Origin: a virus
Taxonomy: Duplodnaviria; Heunggongvirae; Uroviricota; Caudoviricetes
IMG/VR virus record: IMGVR_UViG_641736216_000007
Length of the DNA stretch: 16,391 nt
Reading direction: 5' to 3' (one strand)
Part shown: positions 1 through 10,471 of the stretch, piece by piece
How positions within the stretch are numbered: the stretch's first letter is position 1
Layout of the letters: each line of letters opens with the position of its first letter
Program-made: the position numbers and the translations under genes
Notes under the pieces: generated by a model
The model's database searches: none
What the model saw: only the letters and a program-made list of their open reading frames with translations
What the model was told of the DNA's origin: nothing

Positions 1-1723
1 ATTTTTTTATACCAAGATCTTTATCATCCCAATCATAATATACCTTACCATTAGGCTTAATTATTAAGTCGTAGTATATTATAGTGTTTCCTACCTCAAA
101 AGAAGAATATTCAAGTCCTTTATGGTATTGTATCTTAAACCCATCTATTAATCTTATAAATTCAAAGTCTTGGCAAATATCGCTACCCCCAGAATAAATC
201 ATTTTATAATTATTATTATTAAATAAGCTAAGACCTATACCATCCAAAATTTTTAAATTAGATTTAGTTGTATATCTATAGTCAACTCTAAAATTTAAAC
301 TAATATCTTTAAATTTACTAAATCGATCTATAACATTCGATACATTTGAATCAGTCGTTAAAACACTATTTATTCTTACTTCCTTTTTTATATCAGTAAA
401 ATAACTATCTTCCGCTAAATTATCTAAAATCACATTATCATGTCTGCTTATACTCACACCTTTTATTCTATCTTCTGTATTAATATAATTAATAGTATCT
501 AATATCCTATTTTTAGGTAATGTAGTATTTATATAGACAACTTTATCATTATCTATTAGATTGATTAATTCTTTTAATGTGTCTAAGTCAGCAAAAGGTT
601 CTCCTCCAGTAAAAACAAAACTCTTAAATCCTTTTTTATTTAACATACTTATAGACTTTTTAATATTTTTAATATTAGGTCTATCTTTTTTATATTCCCT
701 TTTTGATGTACAAAACTCACAGTTATTTACACAATCAGAAGGCACAAATACCGTTACAGAAATATCCTCTCTTCCTTTTCTAAAGCTTATATTCAGTTTA
801 TCCATGAAGGTATCCAAATCACACCCAGCAGAAGAAGGATGCCCTCCTCCATTAAAGTTTAGTTTAGCTATTTCACTTAAATCAATATCTTTATTTGTTC
901 TCAAACTGACATTATTATTTAAGTTATTCAATATAGCTATAAAATCCAAATTATCAAATTTAGTATATAAGAAATGGCCTAAAAGACTTATTTCTCTCCT
1001 ATCATCAACACTTACTATCCCAACATTAAACTCTTGTTGTTTTTTATCTTTTAATAAATTCATTTTTCTCTGTATTAACTTTTCTCCAATTTCATTAAAA
1101 TAGTCTATTCTTCTTTTTGTTTTTAAATTTATCTTAATATTTTCTTCCTCACTAAACAATTCCTTATTATTAGTTATTTTCTCGACAATAGACTTTCTAA
1201 AATCAATTGCTCCCATTTCCTCAAATAAATCATTCAATCTTACAGCTTCAAGATTGTTAGTTTTTGTCCATGAAAAAGTATCCCAATCTTGTACTAATTC
1301 AACAAAATATTTTAATTCTTTAAAATATAAATCTGAGGGTCCAAATATGTCTTCAAAGAGAAGTTTTGTACCACAAGTTGGCTCTCCCTTTCTATCAAAT
1401 AATATAACCTTAGCCCAAAAATATTTATTTAAGTCTAAAGCTGTTTTATGATGATCTATAAGTTTAAACTTTGCTCCTTCTTTTACAACTTCATCTATCT
1501 TTTTAGCAACTTCATTTGATACACTTATATCAACTATATAAGTCATATCAAAATTTAAATATTCTTTTTTATTAATAAAATCTAATACAAACTTGTCTAC
1601 ATTGCTATAATCACATCCAACCGATTTTAAAATATTAATATTATTTAACCCTAAAACAATCTCTGAACTTTCCCCATCCATATCAATATGTTTAAATAAA
1701 CATACTTTAGCTATACTTTCCAT
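1..1723 (-). CDS. DHH/DHHA1-family phosphoesterase fused to a radical SAM domain (3'-partial, at least 574 aa; missing from the ORF track)
   Basis: Manual translation from ATG at 1723 (RBS GGGAGG at about 1733-1738) is open to the window edge. DHH motifs: H12-I-D-M-D-G17, YIVDIS, D90-H-H92, QDWDTFSW, DHHA1 motif VSLRT...NGGGH295. Radical SAM motifs: C331-VNN-C-EF-C338, FTGGEP, INTTL, VSISRH, ending ...IIKPNGKVYYDWDDKDLGIKN. Confidence 0.88.
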   Translation of the reverse strand, partial: MESIAKVCLFKHIDMDGESSEIVLGLNNINILKSVGCDYSNVDKFVLDFINKKEYLNFDMTYIVDISVSNEVAKKIDEVVKEGAKFKLIDHHKTALDLNKYFWAKVILFDRKGEPTCGTKLLFEDIFGPSDLYFKELKYFVELVQDWDTFSWTKTNNLEAVRLNDLFEEMGAIDFRKSIVEKITNNKELFSEEENIKINLKTKRRIDYFNEIGEKLIQRKMNLLKDKKQQEFNVGIVSVDDRREISLLGHFLYTKFDNLDFIAILNNLNNNVSLRTNKDIDLSEIAKLNFNGGGHPSSAGCDLDTFMDKLNISFRKGREDISVTVFVPSDCVNNCEFCTSKREYKKDRPNIKNIKKSISMLNKKGFKSFVFTGGEPFADLDTLKELINLIDNDKVVYINTTLPKNRILDTINYINTEDRIKGVSISRHDNVILDNLAEDSYFTDIKKEVRINSVLTTDSNVSNVIDRFSKFKDISLNFRVDYRYTTKSNLKILDGIGLSLFNNNNYKMIYSGGSDICQDFEFIRLIDGFKIQYHKGLEYSSFEVGNTIIYYDLIIKPNGKVYYDWDDKDLGIKK

Positions 1724-4081: not shown

Positions 4082-6505
4082 TTATGCTACTAACATTCTA
4101 TCCTTCAATTTTGTATTTCTCTTAATTGCAATATCTTTTTTTATTCCCTGTTGTATTGTTTTTATGCTTCCTATCATTGCTAAAAAATCTCTTGCTCTTG
4201 TCATCCCTGTATAAATTAGATTATTATACAACATATAAATATGCTGTGGTACAATTGGAAGTAATATCGCTCTCCATGCACTACCTTGGCTTTTGTGTAT
4301 TGTAATTGCATAAGATAGCTCTAATTCATCTACACCATCATCATAAAATGCAAAATATTCATCGTACTGAACTATTACCCTTAAACCACCTTTTTCTAAA
4401 GGGACAACATCATAGACTACTCCACATTCTCCATTTGTAACATCTGTCTTGTTAATTTTCTTAAATGAACCATCTTTTAATTCATATAGAGCCATATTAT
4501 AATTATTTTTAACATGTATTACTTTATCATTCTTTGCAATAAAAAGGCTTACTTCTTCAGGTGCTCCAACTTCTGCAATTTGAGCTTCAAATTTTGTTTT
4601 TAAAACCTTCTTTTCAGAATTGGCATATGGGTTAAACTCTTTTTGTATTATATAATTAAAAACATTAGTTCCCAATGAACCTGTCCTTTGAGGTAGAAGA
4701 ACTTGTATTTCTTCAAGCCCATATTTATCAACGAGTCTTCTTATACTACTAATTACAGCTAATCTTACTTTTCTTACTGAATCTCTTTCTAAAACGTAAA
4801 AATCTTTATCTTCTTCATTTGGACAAACCATTTTTTTCTCAACAACTCCATTTGCATTTTTAGCTATTCCAGATAATAAGTCTTGTCGCTTTAAAACATC
4901 TAAAGTTATTACTTTTACAATCTGACTCTCTATAATATCTTTTAAAACTGTACCAGGTCCAACTGAAGGTAATTGATGTACATCTCCCATAATAATTAAT
5001 TTAGATGTAGTTTTTATGGCTTTTATAAAATTCCATCCTAATTCAATATCTATCATAGTTCCTTCATCACAAACAATTATATCTTTATTGAATTGGTTAA
5101 ACTCATTCATAGTAAATCCCATATAAGGCACATATCCAAGAGATCTATGAATTGTTGAACAATCCATGTAGGTAGCATTTCTAACTACTTTAGAAGCTTT
5201 TCCTGTTGGTGCAACAGCTTCAATTTTTAATTTTCTTTTACTTAATCGTTTTGCTACTTCTAAAATCAAATTAAGAGTAAATGTCTTTCCTGTCCCAGCA
5301 GGTCCATTTAATACAAATAACCCATTATTGTATAAATTAAATTCTATACATGCCTCTCTTTGTTTATCCTCTAATATATAACCTTTTTCAGAACATACTT
5401 CATTAAGAACTTTTTCTACTTCATCTTTTATATATATCTGGTTATAATTGGTAAATAACTTTAATCTTTCAGCAAGCAATTTTTCAGATAAATATAGATA
5501 CTTTAAGTAAATGCAATCATCCTCATTTACTATTTCATTTTCATTTATTAATTCTTCAATTGCTTCTAAAATCAACTCTTCCTTAATACTAAATAAAATA
5601 TAGTTGTTTTTTGTCTTCTTATTTTTCTCATATAAACAAATCTTTTCAGCCAATAGATATTTGTCTAATTTATATGTTTTATCAAACTTGATAATCTCAT
5701 CTGAAGAACTTTTATTACAAGAGCACATTTCTTTATAGCTTAAAGAAAGATTTAGCAAGTTAATTGCATCTTCAATTATTAATTCAAGAGGAAGATAACA
5801 GTGCCCACTAAGCAAAGCTTCTTGTAGTAAAAATTTTACTCCAGCTTTTAATCTATTGATATTATCTAATTCTATTCCTAAGTCTAATGCAATTTTATCG
5901 CATTTTAAAAATCCATAACCTCTTATTTCCTTTATTAGCATATAAGGATTCTCTTCTATTAACTTAAGTATTTCATCCTTATACTTTTCATGCAACTTTC
6001 TTGCATTTTTATAATTTATTCCATAATTTAATAATTCAATAAATATATATTGATTATCTTCAATTTCTTTTAATTCTTTTTGCCATTTTAAAACTGACTT
6101 CTTTCCAATACCCCTAACTTTATTAACTACTTCTAATGGATTATTAAGCAATACTTGTATGGATTCATCTCCAAATATATCGTATATATTTTCTGCTCTA
6201 CTTTTTAATCCATACAATGTTTTAAGATAGGCTATTATTCCTTTCTTTGTATTTGGCTTACATACTCTAAATTCATTTACTTTTATCTGTTTCTCTCTTT
6301 TATATAGAACTATTGTACCTTTTAATTCATAAGTTTGGCCTTCTACTAATTTTTTATTAAATATGCCTTTTATCGTTATCTTAATATCGTCATTCGTTTC
6401 AAAATTGTAAATCCCAAAGGAAGTATCCTCCATAAAAAAAATATTATTTCCACAGATACCAGTTACCTTAATAGAATCCCCATTTTTATATTTTTCTAAA
6501 TCCAT
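4082..6505 (-). CDS. recD2: ATP-dependent RecD-like (RecD2/TraA family) SF1B helicase
   Basis: 807 aa. N-terminal OB-fold and HhH-like region (VRGIGKK, ENPYMLI...GYGFLKCDKIA), Walker A GPAGTGKT, motif II DEGTM (variant of DEASM), GDVHQLPSVGPG, YAITIHKSQGS, YTGMTRAR. Confidence 0.93.
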   Translation of the reverse strand: MDLEKYKNGDSIKVTGICGNNIFFMEDTSFGIYNFETNDDIKITIKGIFNKKLVEGQTYELKGTIVLYKREKQIKVNEFRVCKPNTKKGIIAYLKTLYGLKSRAENIYDIFGDESIQVLLNNPLEVVNKVRGIGKKSVLKWQKELKEIEDNQYIFIELLNYGINYKNARKLHEKYKDEILKLIEENPYMLIKEIRGYGFLKCDKIALDLGIELDNINRLKAGVKFLLQEALLSGHCYLPLELIIEDAINLLNLSLSYKEMCSCNKSSSDEIIKFDKTYKLDKYLLAEKICLYEKNKKTKNNYILFSIKEELILEAIEELINENEIVNEDDCIYLKYLYLSEKLLAERLKLFTNYNQIYIKDEVEKVLNEVCSEKGYILEDKQREACIEFNLYNNGLFVLNGPAGTGKTFTLNLILEVAKRLSKRKLKIEAVAPTGKASKVVRNATYMDCSTIHRSLGYVPYMGFTMNEFNQFNKDIIVCDEGTMIDIELGWNFIKAIKTTSKLIIMGDVHQLPSVGPGTVLKDIIESQIVKVITLDVLKRQDLLSGIAKNANGVVEKKMVCPNEEDKDFYVLERDSVRKVRLAVISSIRRLVDKYGLEEIQVLLPQRTGSLGTNVFNYIIQKEFNPYANSEKKVLKTKFEAQIAEVGAPEEVSLFIAKNDKVIHVKNNYNMALYELKDGSFKKINKTDVTNGECGVVYDVVPLEKGGLRVIVQYDEYFAFYDDGVDELELSYAITIHKSQGSAWRAILLPIVPQHIYMLYNNLIYTGMTRARDFLAMIGSIKTIQQGIKKDIAIKRNTKLKDRMLVA

Positions 6506-6618
6506 AGTTTATCGTCCCCTTTTTTATATTTTATATATAAATACTTTTTCTAATGATATATATTAGATTTTAGGATCAATTCTTATAATGCTTAAATGGA
6601 TTGTTTTTACATAAAAAT

Positions 6619-6645
6619 AAAAGAAGGGGAATTTCCCCTTCTTTT
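6619..6645. terminator. Bidirectional intrinsic terminator closing the central RNA-rich unit
   Basis: Perfect 12-bp stem AAAAGAAGGGGA-ATT-TCCCCTTCTTTT with A/T tracts on both sides. Confidence 0.85.
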
Positions 6646-6648
6646 ACA

Positions 6649-6874
6649 AATAATCTATCATCGCTTTTAATAAATTTATACATTTTATGAACTTTCATTG
6701 TTCTTTTTAACTGGCATCAAATTTAATTTGTAAATTGTAAATTGTTATAATTTAATAAATAGTTATGTGTAAAATGTAATTTATATTCATTATAATTTAA
6801 TTGGTTAGAGTCTTTATGTACTCTGAATTCAAAAGCAGTAAATTACACAAATGATAAAAACAAGATAGATTATT
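6649..6874 (-). ncRNA. Candidate structured RNA downstream of the DIP1984-like gene
   Basis: Perfect 11-bp closing inverted repeat (6649-6659 with 6864-6874), internal TGTAATTTA/TAAATTACA helix, AGAGT/ACTCT and GAAC/GTTC hairpins, three tandem 7-mers at 6725-6745, no ORF. AT-richness weakens the inference. Confidence 0.45.
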
Positions 6875-6920
6875 TTTATATATAAAACATCAATAATTAA
6901 TTATTAATGTGATATAGCTA

Positions 6921-7442
6921 TTAAATTTCTAAATAGGTATCACTATTCATTTTACTTATTAGAGACTCAAGTGTATTAATTTTTTTTCTTAATTCATTTT
7001 TCCTCTCTATCATATTATCTCTATCAAAATTTAAAGTTTTTATTTCCATATAAAAAGAAGATGCATATTGAGTATCTACTTTTCTATGTTTTTTCTCTTT
7101 ATCTAATGAAGATAATTTATCAAGAACACTTAAATAGTTTCTATATTCTTTTAATTTTGTTAAGGCGCTTGATATAGTATCTTCATCACTTATTTTTGTT
7201 TTATTATTAGTATTTTGCAGTAAATTTTTATATTTAACAACATCCTCTGTCATTTCATTATATTCATTCAGTTCTTCATCGAATGAATATTCTGGAGTCA
7301 TTTGAGTTAACTCATTTTTCCCTTGAATAAAGGTAGAATGTTTAATTACAATACTATTGTCTAAAAGCTCTCTTCGCTTATTATATAAATCATTTTCTTT
7401 ATCGCTTATAAGTAATCTTAATTCGTTTAAATTTAATTTCAT
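6921..7442 (-). CDS. DIP1984/DUF6847-like coiled-coil protein (tentative)
   Basis: 173-aa helical protein with RBS AGGAGG. The pattern MKLNLNELRLL..., LQNTNNKT, TISSAL and C-terminal LNFDRD...LRKKINTLESLISKMNSDTYLEI resembles the DIP1984 family layout; recognised by eye, needs HMM confirmation. Confidence 0.55.
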   Translation of the reverse strand: MKLNLNELRLLISDKENDLYNKRRELLDNSIVIKHSTFIQGKNELTQMTPEYSFDEELNEYNEMTEDVVKYKNLLQNTNNKTKISDEDTISSALTKLKEYRNYLSVLDKLSSLDKEKKHRKVDTQYASSFYMEIKTLNFDRDNMIERKNELRKKINTLESLISKMNSDTYLEI

Positions 7443-7461
7443 TAAATTTACCTCCTATTGA

Positions 7462-7594
7462 TGGCAAGCAAGGGATTTGAACCCTTATATATACAACTTC
7501 CTTGATTAAAAGCTTTTAGTAGTAAAATTTTCAAAGGAATCGAACCCTTAAGTTTTCCAAAAGGAAAGTTGTAAATAGATACCTTCAGCCTGCC
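7462..7594 (-). ncRNA. 133-nt tRNA-like RNA with acceptor stem, two T-arms and no anticodon arm
   Basis: Acceptor stem GGCAGGC (7594-7588)/GCTTGCC (7469-7463) plus discriminator A; outer T-arm AAGGG-TTCAAAT-CCCTT (7486-7470); 12-bp helix with one bulge (7573-7561 with 7503-7492); inner T-arm AAGGG-TTCGATT-CCTTT (7549-7533). Confidence 0.75.
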
Positions 7595-7604
7595 AAATAA
7601 AATT

Positions 7605-7958
7605 TTATATTTTATTAAAGCTTTCATTACATTTTTCACATATATCTCCATATATACCTTTGCTTACATTATCTCCATATATGACATCACTACAAATTGT
7701 ACATCTATGTACAATTGGAAGCTCTACATTTATCGCTTCTTCAAGAATAATCTCACTTAATATAGATTCTGCTACGCTTAGAGAACTTGTTTTTACTGGA
7801 AAATATTCTTCAGTATTGTGGTTCTTTATATCATCAACACTGGTTAGATATATAGAATCATTAATTTCAAGTAAAACTTTTTTATCTTCCTCATTCTTAT
7901 TATATGAACTAAGTCTTTTCATTAAAAACCTAACAACTATAGTAAGTATTCTATCCAA
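7605..7958 (-). CDS. Hypothetical protein with C-terminal CxxC...CxxC (putative Zn ribbon)
   Basis: 117 aa, TTG start with GGAAGGGTGA upstream; CTIC and CEKC motifs near the C-terminus. Confidence 0.7.
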   Translation of the reverse strand: MDRILTIVVRFLMKRLSSYNKNEEDKKVLLEINDSIYLTSVDDIKNHNTEEYFPVKTSSLSVAESILSEIILEEAINVELPIVHRCTICSDVIYGDNVSKGIYGDICEKCNESFNKI

Positions 7959-7989
7959 AAATAAGTCACCCTTCCATACACTAATTTTT

Positions 7990-8257
7990 TATATTTGGTT
8001 ATTCTGTTAATCCAGACATGGTATCGAGCTTCTACCATAGCAAGTTTTTTACAAGTTTTCTCTTGAAGCTCCTACAGTAAAAAATATTTTTTATTAATAT
8101 TCTTTTTGCACGATTAAGGATTTATTCCTTTTCCAAATATGTTTGGATTTAATGTACTTTAAAGATGTAATTTATTTCTACTCGGATTTTTGTGAGAAAT
8201 ATTTGTAGTTTTATTTACATTATTAAATTTACATAGGTAGAAGAAGCTATCTTCTTC
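7990..8257 (-). ncRNA. Candidate structured RNA downstream of tRNA(CAU)
   Basis: ORF-free on the minus strand. Hairpins GAAGAAG/CTTCTTC, ATTTCT/AGAAAT, TCCAAA/TTTGGA, AAGGA/TCCTT; pseudoknot-type pairing of GAGCTTC (8071-8065) with GAAGCTC (8032-8026), which lies in the loop of the ATGGTA/TACCAT hairpin (8038-8018). Boundaries uncertain. Confidence 0.4.
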
Positions 8258-8258
8258 A

Positions 8259-8331
8259 TTGCAGGAGAGGGATTCGAACCCTCAACTTTTTGGTAATGAG
8301 CCAAATTTGCTACCATTTGCATTATCCTGCT
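8259..8331 (-). tRNA. tRNA with CAU anticodon (Met/fMet-like, atypical), no encoded CCA
   Basis: AGCAGGA-TA-ATGC-AAATGGTA-GCAA-A-TTTGG-CTCATTA-CCAAA-AAGTT-GAGGG-TTCGAAT-CCCTC-TCCTGCA-A: full 73-nt cloverleaf with A1.A72 mismatch, A10.A25 mismatch and U37. Confidence 0.85.
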
Positions 8332-8984
8332 ATAATGCTATTGTGCCTTGGCCAAAGGACTTATCCAATAGCAATACTCATACTATATAGTTAAACTAAT
8401 AGCTTGATACTGTTATCGCACTCGTCAATAACATATTTGTTTCATATAATTATATGAGAATTGTCCTACTTATTTGAGCTATGATTAAGCTTAGTAGGTT
8501 CCTTATTAGATAGCAAAAACAACAAACAATCTATCTCAAGCAAATATTAATAAATCGCCAAAACTCCAAACGAATATTTTAATCTACTTTTGTTTTAAAC
8601 TGTAAGGGGAGTTTTTATCCTATAGAGAATTTTTTAGTTGTTATTCTCTTCTTTTTACATCCAGAGAAGTCAAGATGTGTCTTAAAAACCCATGCAAAAG
8701 TATGACTTTTTCTACTTTTTTTTACTTAGTGTTTTAATACTAAAATAGGAAAATATAAAATCAATTCGGTAGAAGTTTGTGTTTCAATAATTACTTTAAA
8801 TTTACTTTAAAACTTTGGTGGAATCACCTCTTTCTTACTACTTAAATTTAATAGCCCCCACCAGCTAAAATATACTCCCAGTATCCTCATATGAATTTAT
8901 GCTTAAGATACTTCTCTTCCTTCTATAACAGCAAGAGAGAATTTATTCCTTTATCTTACATAAAAAGAATCTCTACTCTCCAAC
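8332..8984 (-). ncRNA. Candidate large (~650 nt) multi-helix ncRNA between tRNA genes
   Basis: No ORF in the track; at least 12 helices identified by eye, several with G-C pairs and with G.U pairs that only work on the minus strand (for example 8433-8426 with 8418-8411). Family not identified; boundaries approximate. Confidence 0.65.
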
Positions 8985-9107
8985 TTATGAATTTTTTATT
9001 TTTCTGTTTTTGTAGACATCTTTTTTAGGTTTATTTTTTTCATTTTTTTTACTAATTTCATATAATTCATTTATTATATCTTTTTTTAACATATCTCTAA
9101 TTTTCAT
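8985..9107 (-). CDS. Small Lys-rich ORF, 40 aa (MKIRDMLKKDIINELYEISKKNEKNKPKKDVYKNRKIKNS)
   Basis: Strong RBS GGGAGG (9120-9115) before ATG at 9107; TAA at 8987-8985; below the ORF-track length cut-off. Confidence 0.6.
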   Translation of the reverse strand: MKIRDMLKKDIINELYEISKKNEKNKPKKDVYKNRKIKNS

Positions 9108-9126
9108 TTGATGCCTCCCTTTTTAG

Positions 9127-9198
9127 TCGGAATAATAGGATTCGAACCTATGACCTGAGCACCCCAAATGCTCCGCCTTACCACCTGGCTATATCCCG
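9127..9198 (-). tRNA. tRNA-Pro(UGG), no encoded CCA (followed by CTA)
   Basis: CGGGATA-TA-GCC-AGGTGGTAA-GGC-G-GAGCA-TTTGGGG-TGCTC-AGGTC-ATAGG-TTCGAAT-CCTAT-TATTCCG-A; C1-G72, A73, G35-G36 and G37 fit Pro identity. Confidence 0.92.
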
Positions 9199-9199
9199 A

Positions 9200-9470
9200 A
9201 AATAACTCATCCTTCGTAAGGAACACGAACTTGATCACAAATATACCTGAGATTTACTCTATATTTAATAGTAATAAATCTCAGTTTTAAAATAAAAAAA
9301 TGGTTGCAATTCTATCTTTTAAAAGGGGGAATACATTATCAACAAATTTATAGCTAAACTATTTTTATTATATAAGCAACCATTCATAAATTTTGAGAGA
9401 TAGAATGTCCCTGCTAATTTTATTCTTACTTAAAGTTTACATTTCAGATGAGGTGCTTCACCTTCGTTTT
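9200..9470 (-). ncRNA. Candidate ~270-nt structured RNA with crossed (pseudoknot) helices
   Basis: Two perfect 9-bp pairings in crossed order (9406-9398 with 9317-9309; 9384-9376 with 9307-9299), a perfect 10-bp stem (9284-9275 with 9256-9247), small AGGTG/CACCT and TCCTT/AAGGA hairpins; no ORF. Confidence 0.55.
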
Positions 9471-9491
9471 ATAAAAATTACTTAATAATGA

Positions 9492-9551
9492 TTCCAAAGC
9501 TCTGATTTGAACTGACTATTAACAGTTCTCTCCTACTTGAGAAGCTTCGGT
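9492..9551 (-). pseudogene. Truncated tRNA-like element (60 nt)
   Basis: Acceptor-like stem ACCGAAG/CTTTGGA plus A then TCA, D-like hairpin TCTC-AAGTAG-GAGA, GTTCAAATC T-loop motif with an imperfect T-stem; too short to hold both anticodon and T arms. Confidence 0.5.
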
Positions 9552-9581
9552 ATTTTCCTTTTTCTGTAATTTTATATTCTA

Positions 9582-9610
9582 AATATATCATTTTTTTATT
9601 TTCATGTCAA
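9582..9610 (-). promoter_or_regulatory. sigmaA-type promoter for the RNA cluster
   Basis: TTGACA (9610-9605), 17-nt spacer ending in TGA (extended -10 TGn), TATATT (9587-9582). Confidence 0.8.
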
Positions 9611-9721
9611 CTTTTTTAACAAAAAAATTTTTTATAAAAAACGTAATCATTTATTTTTTTTATTTATATTAAATAAAACTATATAATAACAAATATTAAT
9701 AATAAAGGAGTTGTAAATTTT

Positions 9722-10471
9722 ATGAAAAATATAAACAAATTAAACATTTTGGATAAAGGTATCGATGCATCCAATTATATTATAAATAAGTTTAAACATA
9801 TTCTGGATATTTTTAATAACAGTAAAGAAAATAAATATAAATTGTTAACTGAAGATTTATTTTTAGATGTTGAAGACTTATCTTATTTTTTTAATACTTT
9901 TGAAAACATATTTGATTCAGAGGAGCTAAATGCTTTCCAAGAATTTTATTTAAAAAGTCTAATTGATATAATTAATAATAAAATTAACCATGATAATATC
10001 CATTTTAATATAAATACAAATCAGAAAATTTATTTTTTAGATGTTATCTTTACAGAACATAACAAAGAATATAATTTATTAACTTTAGACCCTTATTTAA
10101 AAACAATTAAAGAAAAAGAATACCAGTATATATTAAACATAAATAATTGTATTTCTGAAAAAAAAATAGAACTCAATAAATTAAAAGAATATGAACTTTA
10201 TTTATACTCTATTTCCCAATCCCCTCAGATGTTATCCAATGATAATATTTTAAAAATGGTTGATATTAGATTAAGAACAAAAAAGTATTTAAATGAAATA
10301 CAAAAAGAAATGGTTGCAAATTCTAATAACATAAATAGATTAGCCGAAGAAATTATTACATATAAAGTATTATTAGAAGAAGAATATAAAAACATAACAA
10401 ATATCGATGTTTTAAAAACTAATTTTTTAGATAAGCTAATAGTTTTCTTTAATTTTAAAAAATTAGTCTAA
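9722..10471 (+). CDS. Hypothetical protein, 249 aa, with coiled-coil-like C-terminal half
   Basis: Long ORF with AAGGAG upstream, divergent from the RNA cluster; no recognised family. Confidence 0.75.
   Translation: MKNINKLNILDKGIDASNYIINKFKHILDIFNNSKENKYKLLTEDLFLDVEDLSYFFNTFENIFDSEELNAFQEFYLKSLIDIINNKINHDNIHFNINTNQKIYFLDVIFTEHNKEYNLLTLDPYLKTIKEKEYQYILNINNCISEKKIELNKLKEYELYLYSISQSPQMLSNDNILKMVDIRLRTKKYLNEIQKEMVANSNNINRLAEEIITYKVLLEEEYKNITNIDVLKTNFLDKLIVFFNFKKLV

What the first reader, a model, noticed from the sequence alone, without database searches (positions are those of the whole stretch)
6619..9610. A ~3-kb RNA-dominated operon punctuated by tRNAs and tRNA mimics
Seen: between one extended -10 sigmaA promoter (9610-9582) and one strong terminator (6645-6619), everything identifiable reads on the minus strand. 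Four tRNA or tRNA-like units, none encoding CCA, alternate with four ORF-free structured blocks (about 270, 650, 260 and 225 nt) and only three short ORFs. Two of the tRNA-type units end 5-7 nt before an RBS. Established: RNase P and RNase Z cut at tRNA-like folds, and large ornate RNAs such as GOLLD and ROOL are often found beside tRNA genes in Firmicute prophages and plasmids. Inference: tRNA-punctuated processing releases several ncRNAs and mRNAs that may form a ribonucleoprotein system with the DIP1984-like and Zn-finger proteins. This is the best candidate here for an undescribed system.
Basis: partly seen in the sequence, partly recalled or inferred. Interest (0 to 1): 0.88.

Follow-up and report, generated by a model that had tools for sequence, protein, structure and literature searches.

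The report
tRNA-punctuated non-coding RNA operon, megaplasmid
A 3-kb, strongly promoted stretch of a 300-kb Clostridioides difficile megaplasmid holds two tRNA genes, one tRNA look-alike, three small protein genes and four gene-free blocks that are expressed and conserved. The last block is a folded RNA that follows the same small protein gene in distant relatives, which points to an undescribed protein-RNA pair.

Summary
The observation largely holds. On the minus strand, the best promoter (9610-9582) and the only strong terminator (6647-6617) of the region enclose two bona fide tRNAs (Pro-UGG and CAU; the only tRNAs on the whole plasmid), a 133-nt acceptor/T-arm mimic, three ORFs and four ORF-free blocks. 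The fourth "minimal tRNA-like" unit and the proposed pseudoknot are not supported.

The window belongs to the pCDBI1 megaplasmid family. No block matches any Rfam family, including GOLLD and ROOL. Blocks 2 and 3 diverge 2-5 times less than other intergenic DNA. In one small RNA-seq library, all four contigs that hit the 16-kb window lie inside this locus.

Block 4 is the best-supported part. In six or seven distant lineages the DIP1984-like gene is followed by the same RNA architecture: a two-tier hairpin at the stop codon, a closing helix abutting the terminator, and a row of 7-nt repeats. The sequences differ completely between lineages. Earlier reports of this scan noted this gene-plus-RNA pair on other DNA.

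Processing at the tRNAs and ribonucleoprotein formation remain inferences. Folds for blocks 1-3 could not be tested, because only four lineages 94-98% identical exist.

The parts
9582..9610 (-). Sigma-A-type promoter with an extended -10 (TTGACA, 17 nt, TG, TATATT). The predicted transcription start is near 9575.
   Evidence: 11 of 12 matches plus TG, the best site in 6400-9800. The RNA-seq contig 9326-9561 starts about 14 nt downstream of the predicted start.
9199..9575 (-). Block 1, the 5' leader RNA. It contains a Y-shaped two-hairpin element (9492-9551), an invariant 10-bp helix (9374-9383 with 9298-9307) and a 12-bp hairpin (9246-9287). It tolerates a 16-nt and a 39-nt deletion in the ES-W lineage.
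   Evidence: The RNA-seq contig 9326-9561 has depth 38. Divergence is 7.8%, about the intergenic baseline of 8.4%. The a/a' helix of the proposed pseudoknot is not kept in the ES-W lineage.
9126..9198 (-). tRNA-Pro (anticodon UGG), canonical, with no encoded CCA.
   Evidence: 61.1 bits. Substitutions in the ES-W lineage keep pairing. CCA is the plasmid's commonest proline codon.
8985..9107 (-). ORF40, a lysine-rich 40-aa peptide with a strong RBS 7 nt after the tRNA-Pro discriminator.
   Evidence: It was called as a gene in L004 and L007. Variable columns: 3.3%. No family match.
8333..8984 (-). Block 2, a 652-nt ORF-free, constrained and expressed RNA of unknown class.
   Evidence: No Rfam hit at E<=10. 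Divergence is 3.9%, against 8.4% for other intergenic DNA and about 14% at third codon positions. RNA-seq contig 8580-8732 has depth 42. MFE z-score is -2.85. Its fold could not be tested with the lineages available.
8258..8332 (-). tRNA with anticodon CAU (Met or Ile2). It has no encoded CCA, an A1.A72 mismatch and U at position 37.
   Evidence: 52.2 bits. None of its 75 columns varies across four lineages. The unusual features were read from the sequence. ATA is the plasmid's commonest isoleucine codon.
7959..8257 (-). Block 3, a 299-nt ORF-free RNA and the most constrained block. It starts with a 7-bp hairpin (8240-8257) and runs up to the ORF117 start.
   Evidence: Divergence is 1.7%. MFE z-score is -4.43. 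In the alifold structure (which itself tends to leave variable columns unpaired), 2 of the 160 paired columns vary, against 10 of the 141 unpaired columns. No Rfam hit.
7605..7958 (-). ORF117, a small protein with a C-terminal CxxC...CxxC zinc ribbon.
   Evidence: Codon-position variability is 3.4/1.7/14.4% and dN/dS is 0.12, so it is a real gene. RNA-seq contig 7629-7796. No family match. Found only in this plasmid family.
7462..7594 (-). 'Dumbbell' tRNA mimic. A 7-bp acceptor stem stacks on a T-arm, a long helix replaces the anticodon arm, and there is a second T-arm. It begins 10 nt after the ORF117 stop and ends 5 nt before the ORF173 RBS.
   Evidence: Both T-loops fit TTCRANY (sequence). 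No tRNA-model hit at E<=10. It is absent upstream of the homologous gene in other lineages.
6921..7442 (-). ORF173, a DIP1984/DUF6847-fold protein that evolves fast.
   Evidence: AlphaFold2 pLDDT is 93.4. Foldseek best match is 3kdq, TM 0.67/0.74, probability 1.0. Profile against 3kdq gives E 8.8e-6. Pfam and NCBIfam scores are below cut-off. dN/dS is 0.4-1.3. The subfamily has 106 clusters at 50% identity.
6648..6920 (-). Block 4, a closed structured RNA partnered with the DIP1984-like gene. It has a two-tier hairpin at the stop codon (6881-6916), a 12-bp closing helix (6864-6875 with 6648-6659) and a row of 7-nt repeats (6725-6749).
   Evidence: The same architecture, with unrelated sequences, is seen in L010, L030, L031, L033, L034 and L038. 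In the closing-helix position test, 31, 1 and 2 of 1000 shuffles reached the observed helix length. RNA-seq contig 6661-6810 has depth 27.
6617..6647 (-). Intrinsic terminator: a 14-bp stem followed by a T run.

Best explanation
This is one strongly promoted transcription unit of the pCDBI1-type megaplasmid. It combines two functions.

(1) Two plasmid-borne tRNAs serve the element's very A+T-rich codon usage.

(2) It carries a set of non-coding RNAs and small proteins. The core of that set is a DIP1984-fold protein (ORF173) followed by its own closed, heptad-repeat RNA (block 4).

The likely mechanism is as follows. Transcription starts near 9575 and ends at 6617. Host RNase P and RNase Z excise the two CCA-less tRNAs, and probably also cut at the acceptor/T-arm mimic. 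This would divide the precursor into four pieces:
- a leader RNA (block 1);
- ORF40 mRNA joined to the 650-nt block 2;
- block 3 joined to the ORF117 mRNA;
- a short-leader ORF173 mRNA carrying block 4 as its 3' domain.

The ORF173 protein would then bind the heptad row of block 4, forming a ribonucleoprotein. I guess that this particle acts in conflict between mobile elements and hosts. In relatives this cassette has its own promoter. In pCDBI1 it has been built into the tRNA operon, and the tRNA mimic would supply its 5' end.

Shown here: the parts, their conservation, their expression, and the conserved architecture of block 4. Inferred: co-transcription, the cuts, the binding and the biological role.
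For: ANATOMY. One strong promoter and one strong terminator bracket the region, with no other minus-strand terminator between them. Two true tRNAs without encoded CCA are the only ones on the plasmid. ATA and CCA are the plasmid's commonest Ile and Pro codons. The mimic has tRNA minihelix geometry, and most of its variable pairs keep pairing.

EXPRESSION. Run X1 gives 4 contigs at 100% identity, all within 6661-9561, and none in the other 13.4 kb of the window. No contig crosses a tRNA border.

CONSTRAINT. Blocks 2 and 3 diverge by 3.9% and 1.7%, against 8.4% pooled for 11 other intergenic regions and about 14% at third codon positions. dS is 0.22-0.30. The locus has G+C 0.273, against a median of 0.191 for ORF-free gaps. 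The group II intron, the other G+C-rich gap, is a known structured RNA.

CASSETTE. ORF173 has the DIP1984 fold. Its homologues at 24-40% identity are followed by an ORF-free stretch with three shared features. First, a two-tier hairpin at the stop codon in 6 of 7 lineages (z down to -6). Second, a 10-16-bp closing helix that abuts the terminator where a terminator is identifiable (win, L030, L034), with different sequences in each lineage. Third, period 7 is the top repeat period among periods 4-12 in every lineage, though weakly in L034. In those lineages the gene has its own promoter and no tRNA mimic.

ESTABLISHED KNOWLEDGE. RNase P and RNase Z act on acceptor/T-arm minihelices. tRNA-like domains of bacterial Y RNAs are cut by RNase P and receive CCA (PMC4201824). 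tRNA-like 't-elements' define mRNA ends in plant mitochondria (PMC1920247).
Against: Expression rests on a single tiny library kept as contigs. It gives no strand, no RNA ends and no proof of a single precursor.

A single-sequence fold test found no excess of pair-preserving substitutions in blocks 1, 2 and 4 within the plasmid family. The RNAalifold counts are biased towards leaving variable columns unpaired.

Block 1 and the mimic diverge at the intergenic baseline.

The mimic fails the tRNA covariance model and has no D-arm, so cleavage there is uncertain.

Blocks 1-3, ORF40 and ORF117 have no relatives outside four lineages 94-98% identical. Their link to the DIP1984 cassette therefore rests on adjacency alone.

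The closing helix in the window itself is only marginally longer than chance (31 of 1000 shuffles).
Confidence: 0.55

Rival explanations
1. The ORF-free blocks are not independent RNAs. They are long untranslated regions, meaning cis-acting leaders and trailers that control translation or stability of ORF40, ORF117 and ORF173.
For: Each block is contiguous with an ORF. Block 3 runs straight into the ORF117 start, and block 4 starts at the ORF173 stop. No data show separate stable species. The stop-codon hairpin overlaps the end of the coding frame in all lineages.
Against: A 650-nt constrained trailer behind a 40-aa ORF is out of proportion. RNA-seq contigs in blocks 1, 2 and 4 have higher k-mer depth (27-42) than the one in ORF117 (10.6), though depth from contigs is a weak measure. 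Block 4 forms a closed domain sealed by a helix next to the terminator, which is typical of a stable RNA body.
Confidence: 0.2
2. The locus is a decaying tRNA island. Two tRNAs survive, and the mimic, the T-loop-like motifs and the blocks are remnants without function.
For: T-loop-like motifs occur in the leader (9503-9511) and twice in the dumbbell. Only two intact tRNAs remain. Block 1 and the dumbbell diverge at the intergenic baseline. The leader tolerates 16- and 39-nt deletions.
Against: Blocks 2 and 3 diverge 2-5 times less than other intergenic DNA. No tRNA-model hit occurs in any block even at E<=10. Block 4 has a conserved architecture in distant lineages that have no tRNAs nearby. 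The blocks are expressed.
Confidence: 0.07
3. The conserved non-coding DNA acts as DNA. It could be a replication origin, a partition site or a packaging site served by the adjacent RecD2 helicase, with the 7-bp repeats acting as iterons.
For: The setting is A+T-rich. Short tandem repeats lie at 6725-6749 and vary in copy number between lineages. A RecD2-type helicase gene follows. L031 has a ParB_N gene after its copy of the cassette.
Against: The cumulative GC-skew extremes lie at about 69 and 251 kb, whereas the locus is at 40-43 kb. The blocks are richer in G+C than other gaps. They are represented in an RNA library while their surroundings are not. The conserved features are helices with covarying sequences, oriented with the gene. 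A 7-bp period does not match the DNA helical repeat.
Confidence: 0.07
4. The blocks encode unannotated small proteins or solitary CRISPR-repeat RNAs (RNA anti-CRISPRs).
For: The plasmid carries many mini CRISPR arrays. Small ORFs are easily missed.
Against: The longest minus-strand ORF inside the blocks is 27-33 aa and has no RBS. The plasmid's CRISPR repeat has no match in the window at up to 3 mismatches, and none in the locus at up to 8. No CRISPR-DR family hit occurs.
Confidence: 0.03

Closest known systems
GOLLD (Rfam RF02032) and ROOL (RF03087): large ornate RNAs of phages and prophages, often beside tRNA islands (bioRxiv 10.1101/2024.12.08.627333)
   Same: Both are large, ORF-free, expressed RNAs on a mobile element, directly flanked by tRNA genes and of unknown function. 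A related element (L010) carries a true GOLLD upstream of its DIP1984-like gene and RecD2 gene.
   Different: No sequence or structure match was found in the locus or anywhere on the plasmid. Ornate structure is not demonstrated for blocks 1-3. GOLLD and ROOL have no known protein partner, whereas block 4 has a dedicated neighbouring gene.
Bacterial Y RNAs (YrlA) with Ro60/Rsr (PMC4201824)
   Same: This is a non-coding RNA encoded next to its protein partner. It includes an RNA module that mimics tRNA (acceptor stem plus T-arm) and is a substrate for RNase P and CCA addition. It also occurs in phages.
   Different: No Ro60/TROVE protein is encoded in the window and no Y-RNA family hit was found. 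Here the tRNA mimic lies upstream of the protein gene and the partner RNA downstream. The protein has the DIP1984 fold.
tRNA punctuation and 't-elements' of organelle transcripts (PMC1920247, PMC3790967)
   Same: tRNAs and tRNA-like folds between cistrons would define mRNA and ncRNA ends through RNase P and RNase Z. Two of the units here end 5-7 nt before an RBS.
   Different: That is an organellar system with mapped ends. Here the cuts are inferred, and only one mimic is credible.
Periodic protein-binding RNA rows: TRAP sites (spaced G/UAG triplets) and HutP sites (from my own knowledge, not checked here)
   Same: A row of evenly spaced short units in single-stranded RNA, suited to binding a multimeric protein.
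   Different: The period is 7 nt, there are only 3-5 units in the window, and the unit sequence differs between lineages. Binding is untested.
DIP1984/DUF6847 gene plus downstream structured RNA, as noted by earlier reports of this scan on other genomes (AI notes such as e1-5281358 and e1-854213; not in Rfam, and no paper was found)
   Same: A DIP1984-fold gene is directly followed by an ORF-free folded RNA of about 200-350 nt with a row of 7-nt units.
   Different: Here the cassette has no promoter of its own. It is embedded in a tRNA operon behind a tRNA mimic, and the protein belongs to a distant subfamily that scores below the Pfam and NCBIfam cut-offs.

Membership tests
tRNA (Rfam RF00005) | Cloverleaf scoring above the gathering threshold, with an anticodon called by ARAGORN | tested here: met
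   Units at 9126-9198 (61.1 bits, UGG) and 8258-8332 (52.2 bits, CAU).
tRNA (Rfam RF00005) | The same criterion applied to the dumbbell (7462-7594) and the 60-nt element (9492-9551) | tested here: not met
   No RF00005 hit at E<=10 on 3.4 kb and no ARAGORN call. The dumbbell keeps only the acceptor stem and T-arms.
GOLLD RNA (RF02032) | Match to the conserved 3' core model | tested here: not met
   No hit at E<=10 in the locus and none at E<=1 on the two whole plasmids. As a positive control, L010 scores 213 bits.
ROOL RNA (RF03087) | Match to the family model | tested here: not met
   Note that no control genome gave a hit.
DIP1984 / DUF6847 (PF20935, NF038048) | Score above the curated cut-off | tested here: not met
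   Pfam 23.4 bits against a cut-off of 27. NCBIfam 23.4 bits against a cut-off of 70.
DIP1984 / DUF6847 (PF20935, NF038048) | Same fold as the solved family member 3kdq | tested here: met
   The profile of 35 subfamily members against 3kdq gives E 8.8e-6. The AlphaFold2 model (pLDDT 93.4) against 3kdq gives TM 0.67/0.74, probability 1.0, and the next hit has E 0.6.
DIP1984-associated heptad RNA (uncatalogued; known only from earlier notes of this scan) | An ORF-free folded RNA directly after the gene, on the same strand | tested here: met
   Seen in the window and in L010, L030, L031, L033, L034 and L038.
DIP1984-associated heptad RNA (uncatalogued; known only from earlier notes of this scan) | A row of evenly spaced 7-nt units | tested here: met
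   Period 7 is the top period among periods 4-12 in all 7 lineages. Between 0 and 3 of 200 shuffles reach the observed value, except in L034 (29 of 200).
DIP1984-associated heptad RNA (uncatalogued; known only from earlier notes of this scan) | Homology to the RNAs of the earlier reports (alignment or shared covariance model) | not testable with these tools
Y RNA / Ro60 system | A Ro60 (TROVE) gene nearby and a Y-RNA model hit | tested here: not met
   No TROVE domain in any window protein. No Y-RNA family hit.

The most novel reading that the evidence does not exclude
The locus encodes an undescribed ribonucleoprotein system. A fast-evolving DIP1984-fold protein assembles on the 7-nt repeat row of its own closed 3' RNA. 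In this megaplasmid that cassette has been joined to two further large non-coding RNAs of new classes (blocks 2 and 3). tRNA-type processing signals release all of them from one precursor, making a bacterial counterpart of organellar tRNA punctuation that produces a multi-RNA particle used in conflicts between mobile elements and hosts.
Probability: 0.3. Interest if true: 0.85.

Novelty: new variant of a known kind. Interest (0 to 1): 0.62.

Why it matters
Large non-coding RNAs next to tRNA genes on phages and plasmids (GOLLD, ROOL) are a long-standing puzzle, because none has a known partner or function. This locus offers a tractable case in a culturable species. The RNAs are expressed and constrained, their boundaries are predicted by tRNA processing, and one of them (block 4) has an obvious candidate protein partner whose gene-plus-RNA pairing recurs in distant elements.

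No paper in the searched library describes a function for DIP1984/DUF6847. One paper mentions DIP1984 in passing and none mentions DUF6847. Showing that the protein binds the heptad RNA would therefore assign a first activity to a widespread protein family. It would also add a new RNA class to the catalogue.

Tried and rejected
DISTANT HOMOLOGUES OF THE RNA BLOCKS
- blastn (distant mode) against plasmids found only the two pCDBI1-type records, and against phages found nothing.
- tblastn with ORF117 and ORF173 found nothing new.
- The search for related loci with ORF173, RecD2 and ORF117 found no usable relative in genome, viral or metagenome collections. The one weak viral hit, L003, has an unrelated context.
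- The profile alignment A2 was too divergent for pattern scans.
- Covariation for blocks 1-3 therefore could not be tested. The unbiased single-sequence fold test was not significant.

NO PARALOGUES. The locus has no paralogue elsewhere on the plasmid.

GOLLD LINK. GOLLD occurs in L010 only. It is absent from L008, L009, L012, L013 and L030-L033 and from pCDBI1, so I treat it as context rather than homology.

ORIGIN OF REPLICATION. Rejected on GC skew.

RNA ANTI-CRISPR. Rejected because the locus holds no repeat-like sequence.

ORF40 AND THE SMALL ORF OF L010/L033. ORF40 resembles by eye the 50-aa lysine-rich ORF that follows the RNA in L010 and L033, but BLASTP finds no alignment.

The a and a' strands both change in the ES-W lineage without keeping complementarity. 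The b/b' helix is invariant and therefore uninformative.

OTHER RNA-SEQ RUNS. Raw-read runs X5 and X9 carry no reads from the plasmid. X2 looks like DNA of a relative. A second run search using block 2 alone found no further RNA run holding it.

PROTEIN ATLAS. The search with ORF117 gave no informative hit.

Full report
WHERE THE WINDOW COMES FROM

The 3-kb region is 99.9% identical to the 300.9-kb circular 'plasmid unnamed' of Clostridioides difficile BI1 (NC_017177.1). It is 92% identical to the 305.9-kb plasmid pESW1602 of a pond-water Clostridioides isolate. No phage record matches it. The literature calls this element a megaplasmid or large extrachromosomal DNA that carries its own CRISPR arrays (PMC6807378; PMC4173771). 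Through the ORF173 protein I recovered two further lineages from public assemblies. In total there are four lineages (window; L004/L005; L002; L006/L007), 94-98% identical over the locus. Gene order is the same in all of them.

THE OBSERVATION

On the minus strand, the best promoter-like site of the region is TTGACA-17-TATATT with TG (9610-9582), at 11 of 12 matches. The only strong terminator is at 6647-6617, with 14 bp and a T run. These two sites bracket the locus.

ARAGORN and Infernal agree on two tRNAs: Pro(UGG) at 9126-9198 and CAU at 8258-8332. These are the only tRNAs on either whole plasmid. Neither encodes CCA.

The third unit, at 7462-7594, has a 7-bp acceptor stem (GGCAGGC with GCTTGCC). 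This stem continues directly into a 5-bp T-stem with loop TTCAAAT, followed by a discriminator A. A long helix stands where the anticodon arm would be, and it leads to a second T-arm with loop TTCGATT. RNAalifold recovers this fold, and five of its six variable pairs keep pairing. With a single-sequence fold, substituted pairs are kept 6 times and broken 3 times on the minus strand, against 2 and 5 on the plus strand. The element scores nothing against the tRNA model at E<=10. It is therefore a mimic of the acceptor/T-arm minihelix and not a tRNA.

The fourth unit, at 9492-9551, is a plain Y of two hairpins with no model hit. I do not count it.

The ORF-free blocks are real. The longest minus-strand ORFs within them are 27-33 aa.

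ARE THE BLOCKS FUNCTIONAL?

Three lines of evidence bear on this.

(a) Constraint. Third codon positions of six flanking genes vary in 13-14% of columns across the four lineages. dS between the window and the ES-W lineage is 0.22-0.30. Eleven other intergenic regions of the window, pooled, differ from the ES-W plasmid by 8.4% (158 of 1882 positions). The units of the locus compare as follows:

| Unit | Divergence from the ES-W plasmid |
|---|---|
| Block 2 | 3.9% |
| Block 3 | 1.7% |
| tRNA(CAU) | 0% |
| Block 4 | 3.8% |
| Block 1 | 7.8% |
| tRNA mimic | 7.5% |

So blocks 2, 3 and 4 are constrained well beyond ordinary spacer DNA. Block 1 and the mimic are not. Block 4 varies more in the other lineages: 10.5% of its columns vary across all four.

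(b) Expression. One small RNA-seq library (X1, kept as contigs) gives four contigs at 100% identity to the window. They lie at 6661-6810 (block 4), 7629-7796 (ORF117), 8580-8732 (block 2) and 9326-9561 (block 1). None falls in the other 13.4 kb. The locus makes up about 18% of the window. If the contigs came from evenly spread contaminating DNA, the chance that all four fall in the locus would be about 0.001 (my arithmetic). No contig crosses a tRNA border. The contigs give neither strand nor RNA ends, and this is a single library.

(c) Composition. The 1765-nt gap holding blocks 1-3 is the third-longest ORF-free gap of the plasmid. Its G+C is 0.273, against a median of 0.191 for ORF-free gaps. 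The two longer gaps lie where the repeat scan finds mini CRISPR arrays. The gap richest in G+C is a group II intron. Elevated G+C in a gap on this plasmid therefore does mark structured RNA.

WHAT COULD NOT BE SHOWN FOR BLOCKS 1-3

MFE z-scores are modest, from -2.1 to -4.4. RNAalifold places most variable columns in loops, but that method is biased towards doing so. An unbiased test uses the fold of the window sequence alone and scores substitutions in the other lineages. It shows no significant excess of pair-preserving changes and no strand asymmetry for blocks 1, 2 and 4. With only four near-identical lineages, and no relatives in any collection, the folds of blocks 1-3 remain predictions. 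No Rfam family matches any block even at E<=10. GOLLD and ROOL are absent from both whole plasmids.

BLOCK 4 AND ORF173: THE BEST-SUPPORTED PART

ORF173 scores below the cut-offs of DUF6847 and of the NCBIfam DIP1984 family. An exhaustive profile search nevertheless finds 106 clusters of proteins of about 170 aa. A 35-member profile hits the solved DIP1984-type structure 3kdq at E 8.8e-6. The AlphaFold2 model (pLDDT 93.4) superposes on 3kdq with TM 0.67/0.74, and nothing else comes close.

I fetched the DNA around members that are 24-40% identical. These are L010, L030, L031/L032, L033, L034-L036 and L037-L039. In every lineage the gene is followed by 300-700 nt without a called gene, and these stretches share an architecture:

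- Stop-codon hairpin. Directly at the stop codon, a short outer helix (often CUAUA with UAUAG) encloses a 7-13-bp hairpin whose sequence differs in each lineage. This is seen in 6 of 7 lineages, with z-scores down to -6.
- Closing helix. Next comes the 5' strand of a 10-16-bp helix. In the three lineages with an identifiable terminator (window, L030, L034) its 3' strand ends immediately before that terminator. The sequences are again unrelated. I asked whether the 30 nt before the terminator pair this well with nt 11-80 of the RNA. In those three lineages, 31, 1 and 2 of 1000 shuffles reached the observed length.
- Heptad row. Inside the closed domain lies a row of 7-nt repeats. Period 7 is the best period among 4-12 in all seven lineages. 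Between 0 and 3 of 200 shuffles reach it, except in L034 (29 of 200). The unit differs by lineage: ACAATTT, TAACGAn, TTTAAGn, TTTTAGn, TTTTACA. The number of units varies even within the pCDBI1 family.

Helices kept in place while their sequences turn over completely are the classical signature of a functional RNA fold. A unit that changes together with a fast-evolving protein would suit a protein-binding row. ORF173 has dN/dS of 0.4-1.3, with 32.5 non-synonymous against 5.5 synonymous differences between two lineages whose flanks are 98% identical. That last link is an inference.

Earlier reports of this scan had already noted a structured RNA, in one case a 'heptad RNA', behind DIP1984 genes in other genomes. 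I used those notes as a lead and re-derived the pattern here on independent loci. I could not compare sequences with those reports.

HOW THE OPERON PROBABLY WORKS

In the other lineages the DIP1984-like gene has its own near-consensus promoter, a 130-200-nt leader and no tRNA-like element. In pCDBI1 there is no credible internal minus-strand promoter. The gene sits 5 nt behind the discriminator of the tRNA mimic.

It is established that RNase P cuts 5' of acceptor/T-arm minihelices. It is also established that, in Firmicutes, RNase Z cuts after the discriminator of CCA-less tRNAs (my own knowledge). tRNA-like domains of bacterial Y RNAs are RNase P substrates (PMC4201824). Plant mitochondrial 't-elements' set mRNA ends in the same way (PMC1920247).

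If the unit is co-transcribed, maturation of the two tRNAs necessarily cuts the precursor. A cut at the mimic is plausible but unproven, because the mimic lacks a D-arm. My estimates:

| Step | Probability |
|---|---|
| Co-transcription | about 0.7 |
| Cuts at the true tRNAs, given co-transcription | about 0.9 |
| Cut at the mimic | about 0.5 |
| Blocks 2 and 3 act as RNAs | about 0.6 |
| ORF173 binds block 4 | about 0.5 |

The two tRNAs fit the element's codon usage. ATA (57 per 1000) and CCA are the commonest Ile and Pro codons. The CAU tRNA would read ATA only if it is modified as a tRNA-Ile2, and this is untested. It has an A1.A72 mismatch and U37, yet it is invariant across the four lineages.

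RIVALS

- Long regulatory UTRs rather than free RNAs: confidence 0.2. This cannot be excluded without end mapping.
- A decaying tRNA island: 0.07. It conflicts with the constraint, the expression and the conserved architecture of block 4.
- A DNA-level role such as an origin: 0.07. It conflicts with GC skew, with expression and with RNA-type covariation.
- Small proteins or solitary CRISPR repeats: 0.03.

COMPARISON AND NOVELTY

The kind of thing is known: expressed RNAs of unknown function embedded among tRNA genes on a mobile element, as with GOLLD and ROOL (bioRxiv 10.1101/2024.12.08.627333). The members are not known, since no block belongs to any catalogued family.

Two aspects are new variants. 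The first is a credible tRNA mimic placed as a punctuation mark between two protein genes in a bacterial operon. The second is a DIP1984-fold protein with a dedicated closed heptad RNA, for which I found no literature.

The scan has found that pair before on other DNA, so it is not new to this scan. The operon's other parts (blocks 1-3, ORF40, ORF117) are confined to one plasmid family, which limits both the evidence and the generality. I rate interest at 0.62.

Noticed in passing
window 8259-8331 (-): The CAU tRNA has an A1.A72 mismatch and U instead of a purine at position 37 (anticodon loop CUCAUUA). Even so, it is invariant in all four plasmid lineages. Whether it acts as Met, Ile2 or something else is open.
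   Followed up: partly
window 6921-7442 (-): ORF173 evolves far faster than its surroundings. dN/dS is 1.3 between the window and L004, although their flanks are 98% identical. Codon positions vary almost equally (13.8/9.8/12.6%), which suggests diversifying selection or recombination.
   Followed up: partly
window 8240-8257 (-): In the hairpin directly after the CAU tRNA, the 4-nt loop reads AUAG in two lineages and its reverse complement CUAU in the other two. This is a loop inversion.
   Followed up: no
NC_017177.1, 109-145 kb and about 290 kb (loci L019-L021, L028): Many mini CRISPR arrays with the repeat ATTAAACCTTAACACTATGTGTATTTAAAT coincide with the largest ORF-free gaps of the plasmid. 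By a crude ORF count the plasmid is only about 79% coding.
   Followed up: partly
NC_017177.1, 100-240 kb (L020, L021, L023, L025): Rfam finds two HEARO (IscB omega-RNA) copies, one group II intron (236998-237763) and one RAGATH-18 RNA.
   Followed up: no
L010:2140-3115 (+): A complete GOLLD RNA (213 bits) with its own promoter and terminator lies on a metagenomic contig. The same contig carries a DIP1984-like gene plus heptad RNA and a RecD2 homologue 51% identical to the window's.
   Followed up: partly
L008:12092-15271 and L009:11259-14438: Hen1 methyltransferase, PNKP-type RNA ligase and PTH2 genes (an RNA-repair set) lie near RecD2 homologues on phage-like contigs. L009 also has CRISPR repeats.
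   Followed up: no
L010:6717-6869, L033:1058-1204, window 8985-9107: L010 and L033 share a homologous lysine-rich ORF of about 50 aa right after the heptad RNA. Window ORF40 looks similar by eye (xRDxL...K-rich tail), but BLASTP finds no alignment.
   Followed up: partly
window 2-1723 (-): A single open frame joins DHH/DHHA1 phosphoesterase domains to a radical SAM domain (Pfam hits).
   Followed up: no
L010:5375-5420 and the stop-codon hairpins of L010, L030 and L033: The motif 'hairpin followed by TTTATATATA(G)' recurs, also upstream of the L010 cassette. It could be a shared signal of these elements, such as a weak terminator, a processing site or a promoter.
   Followed up: no
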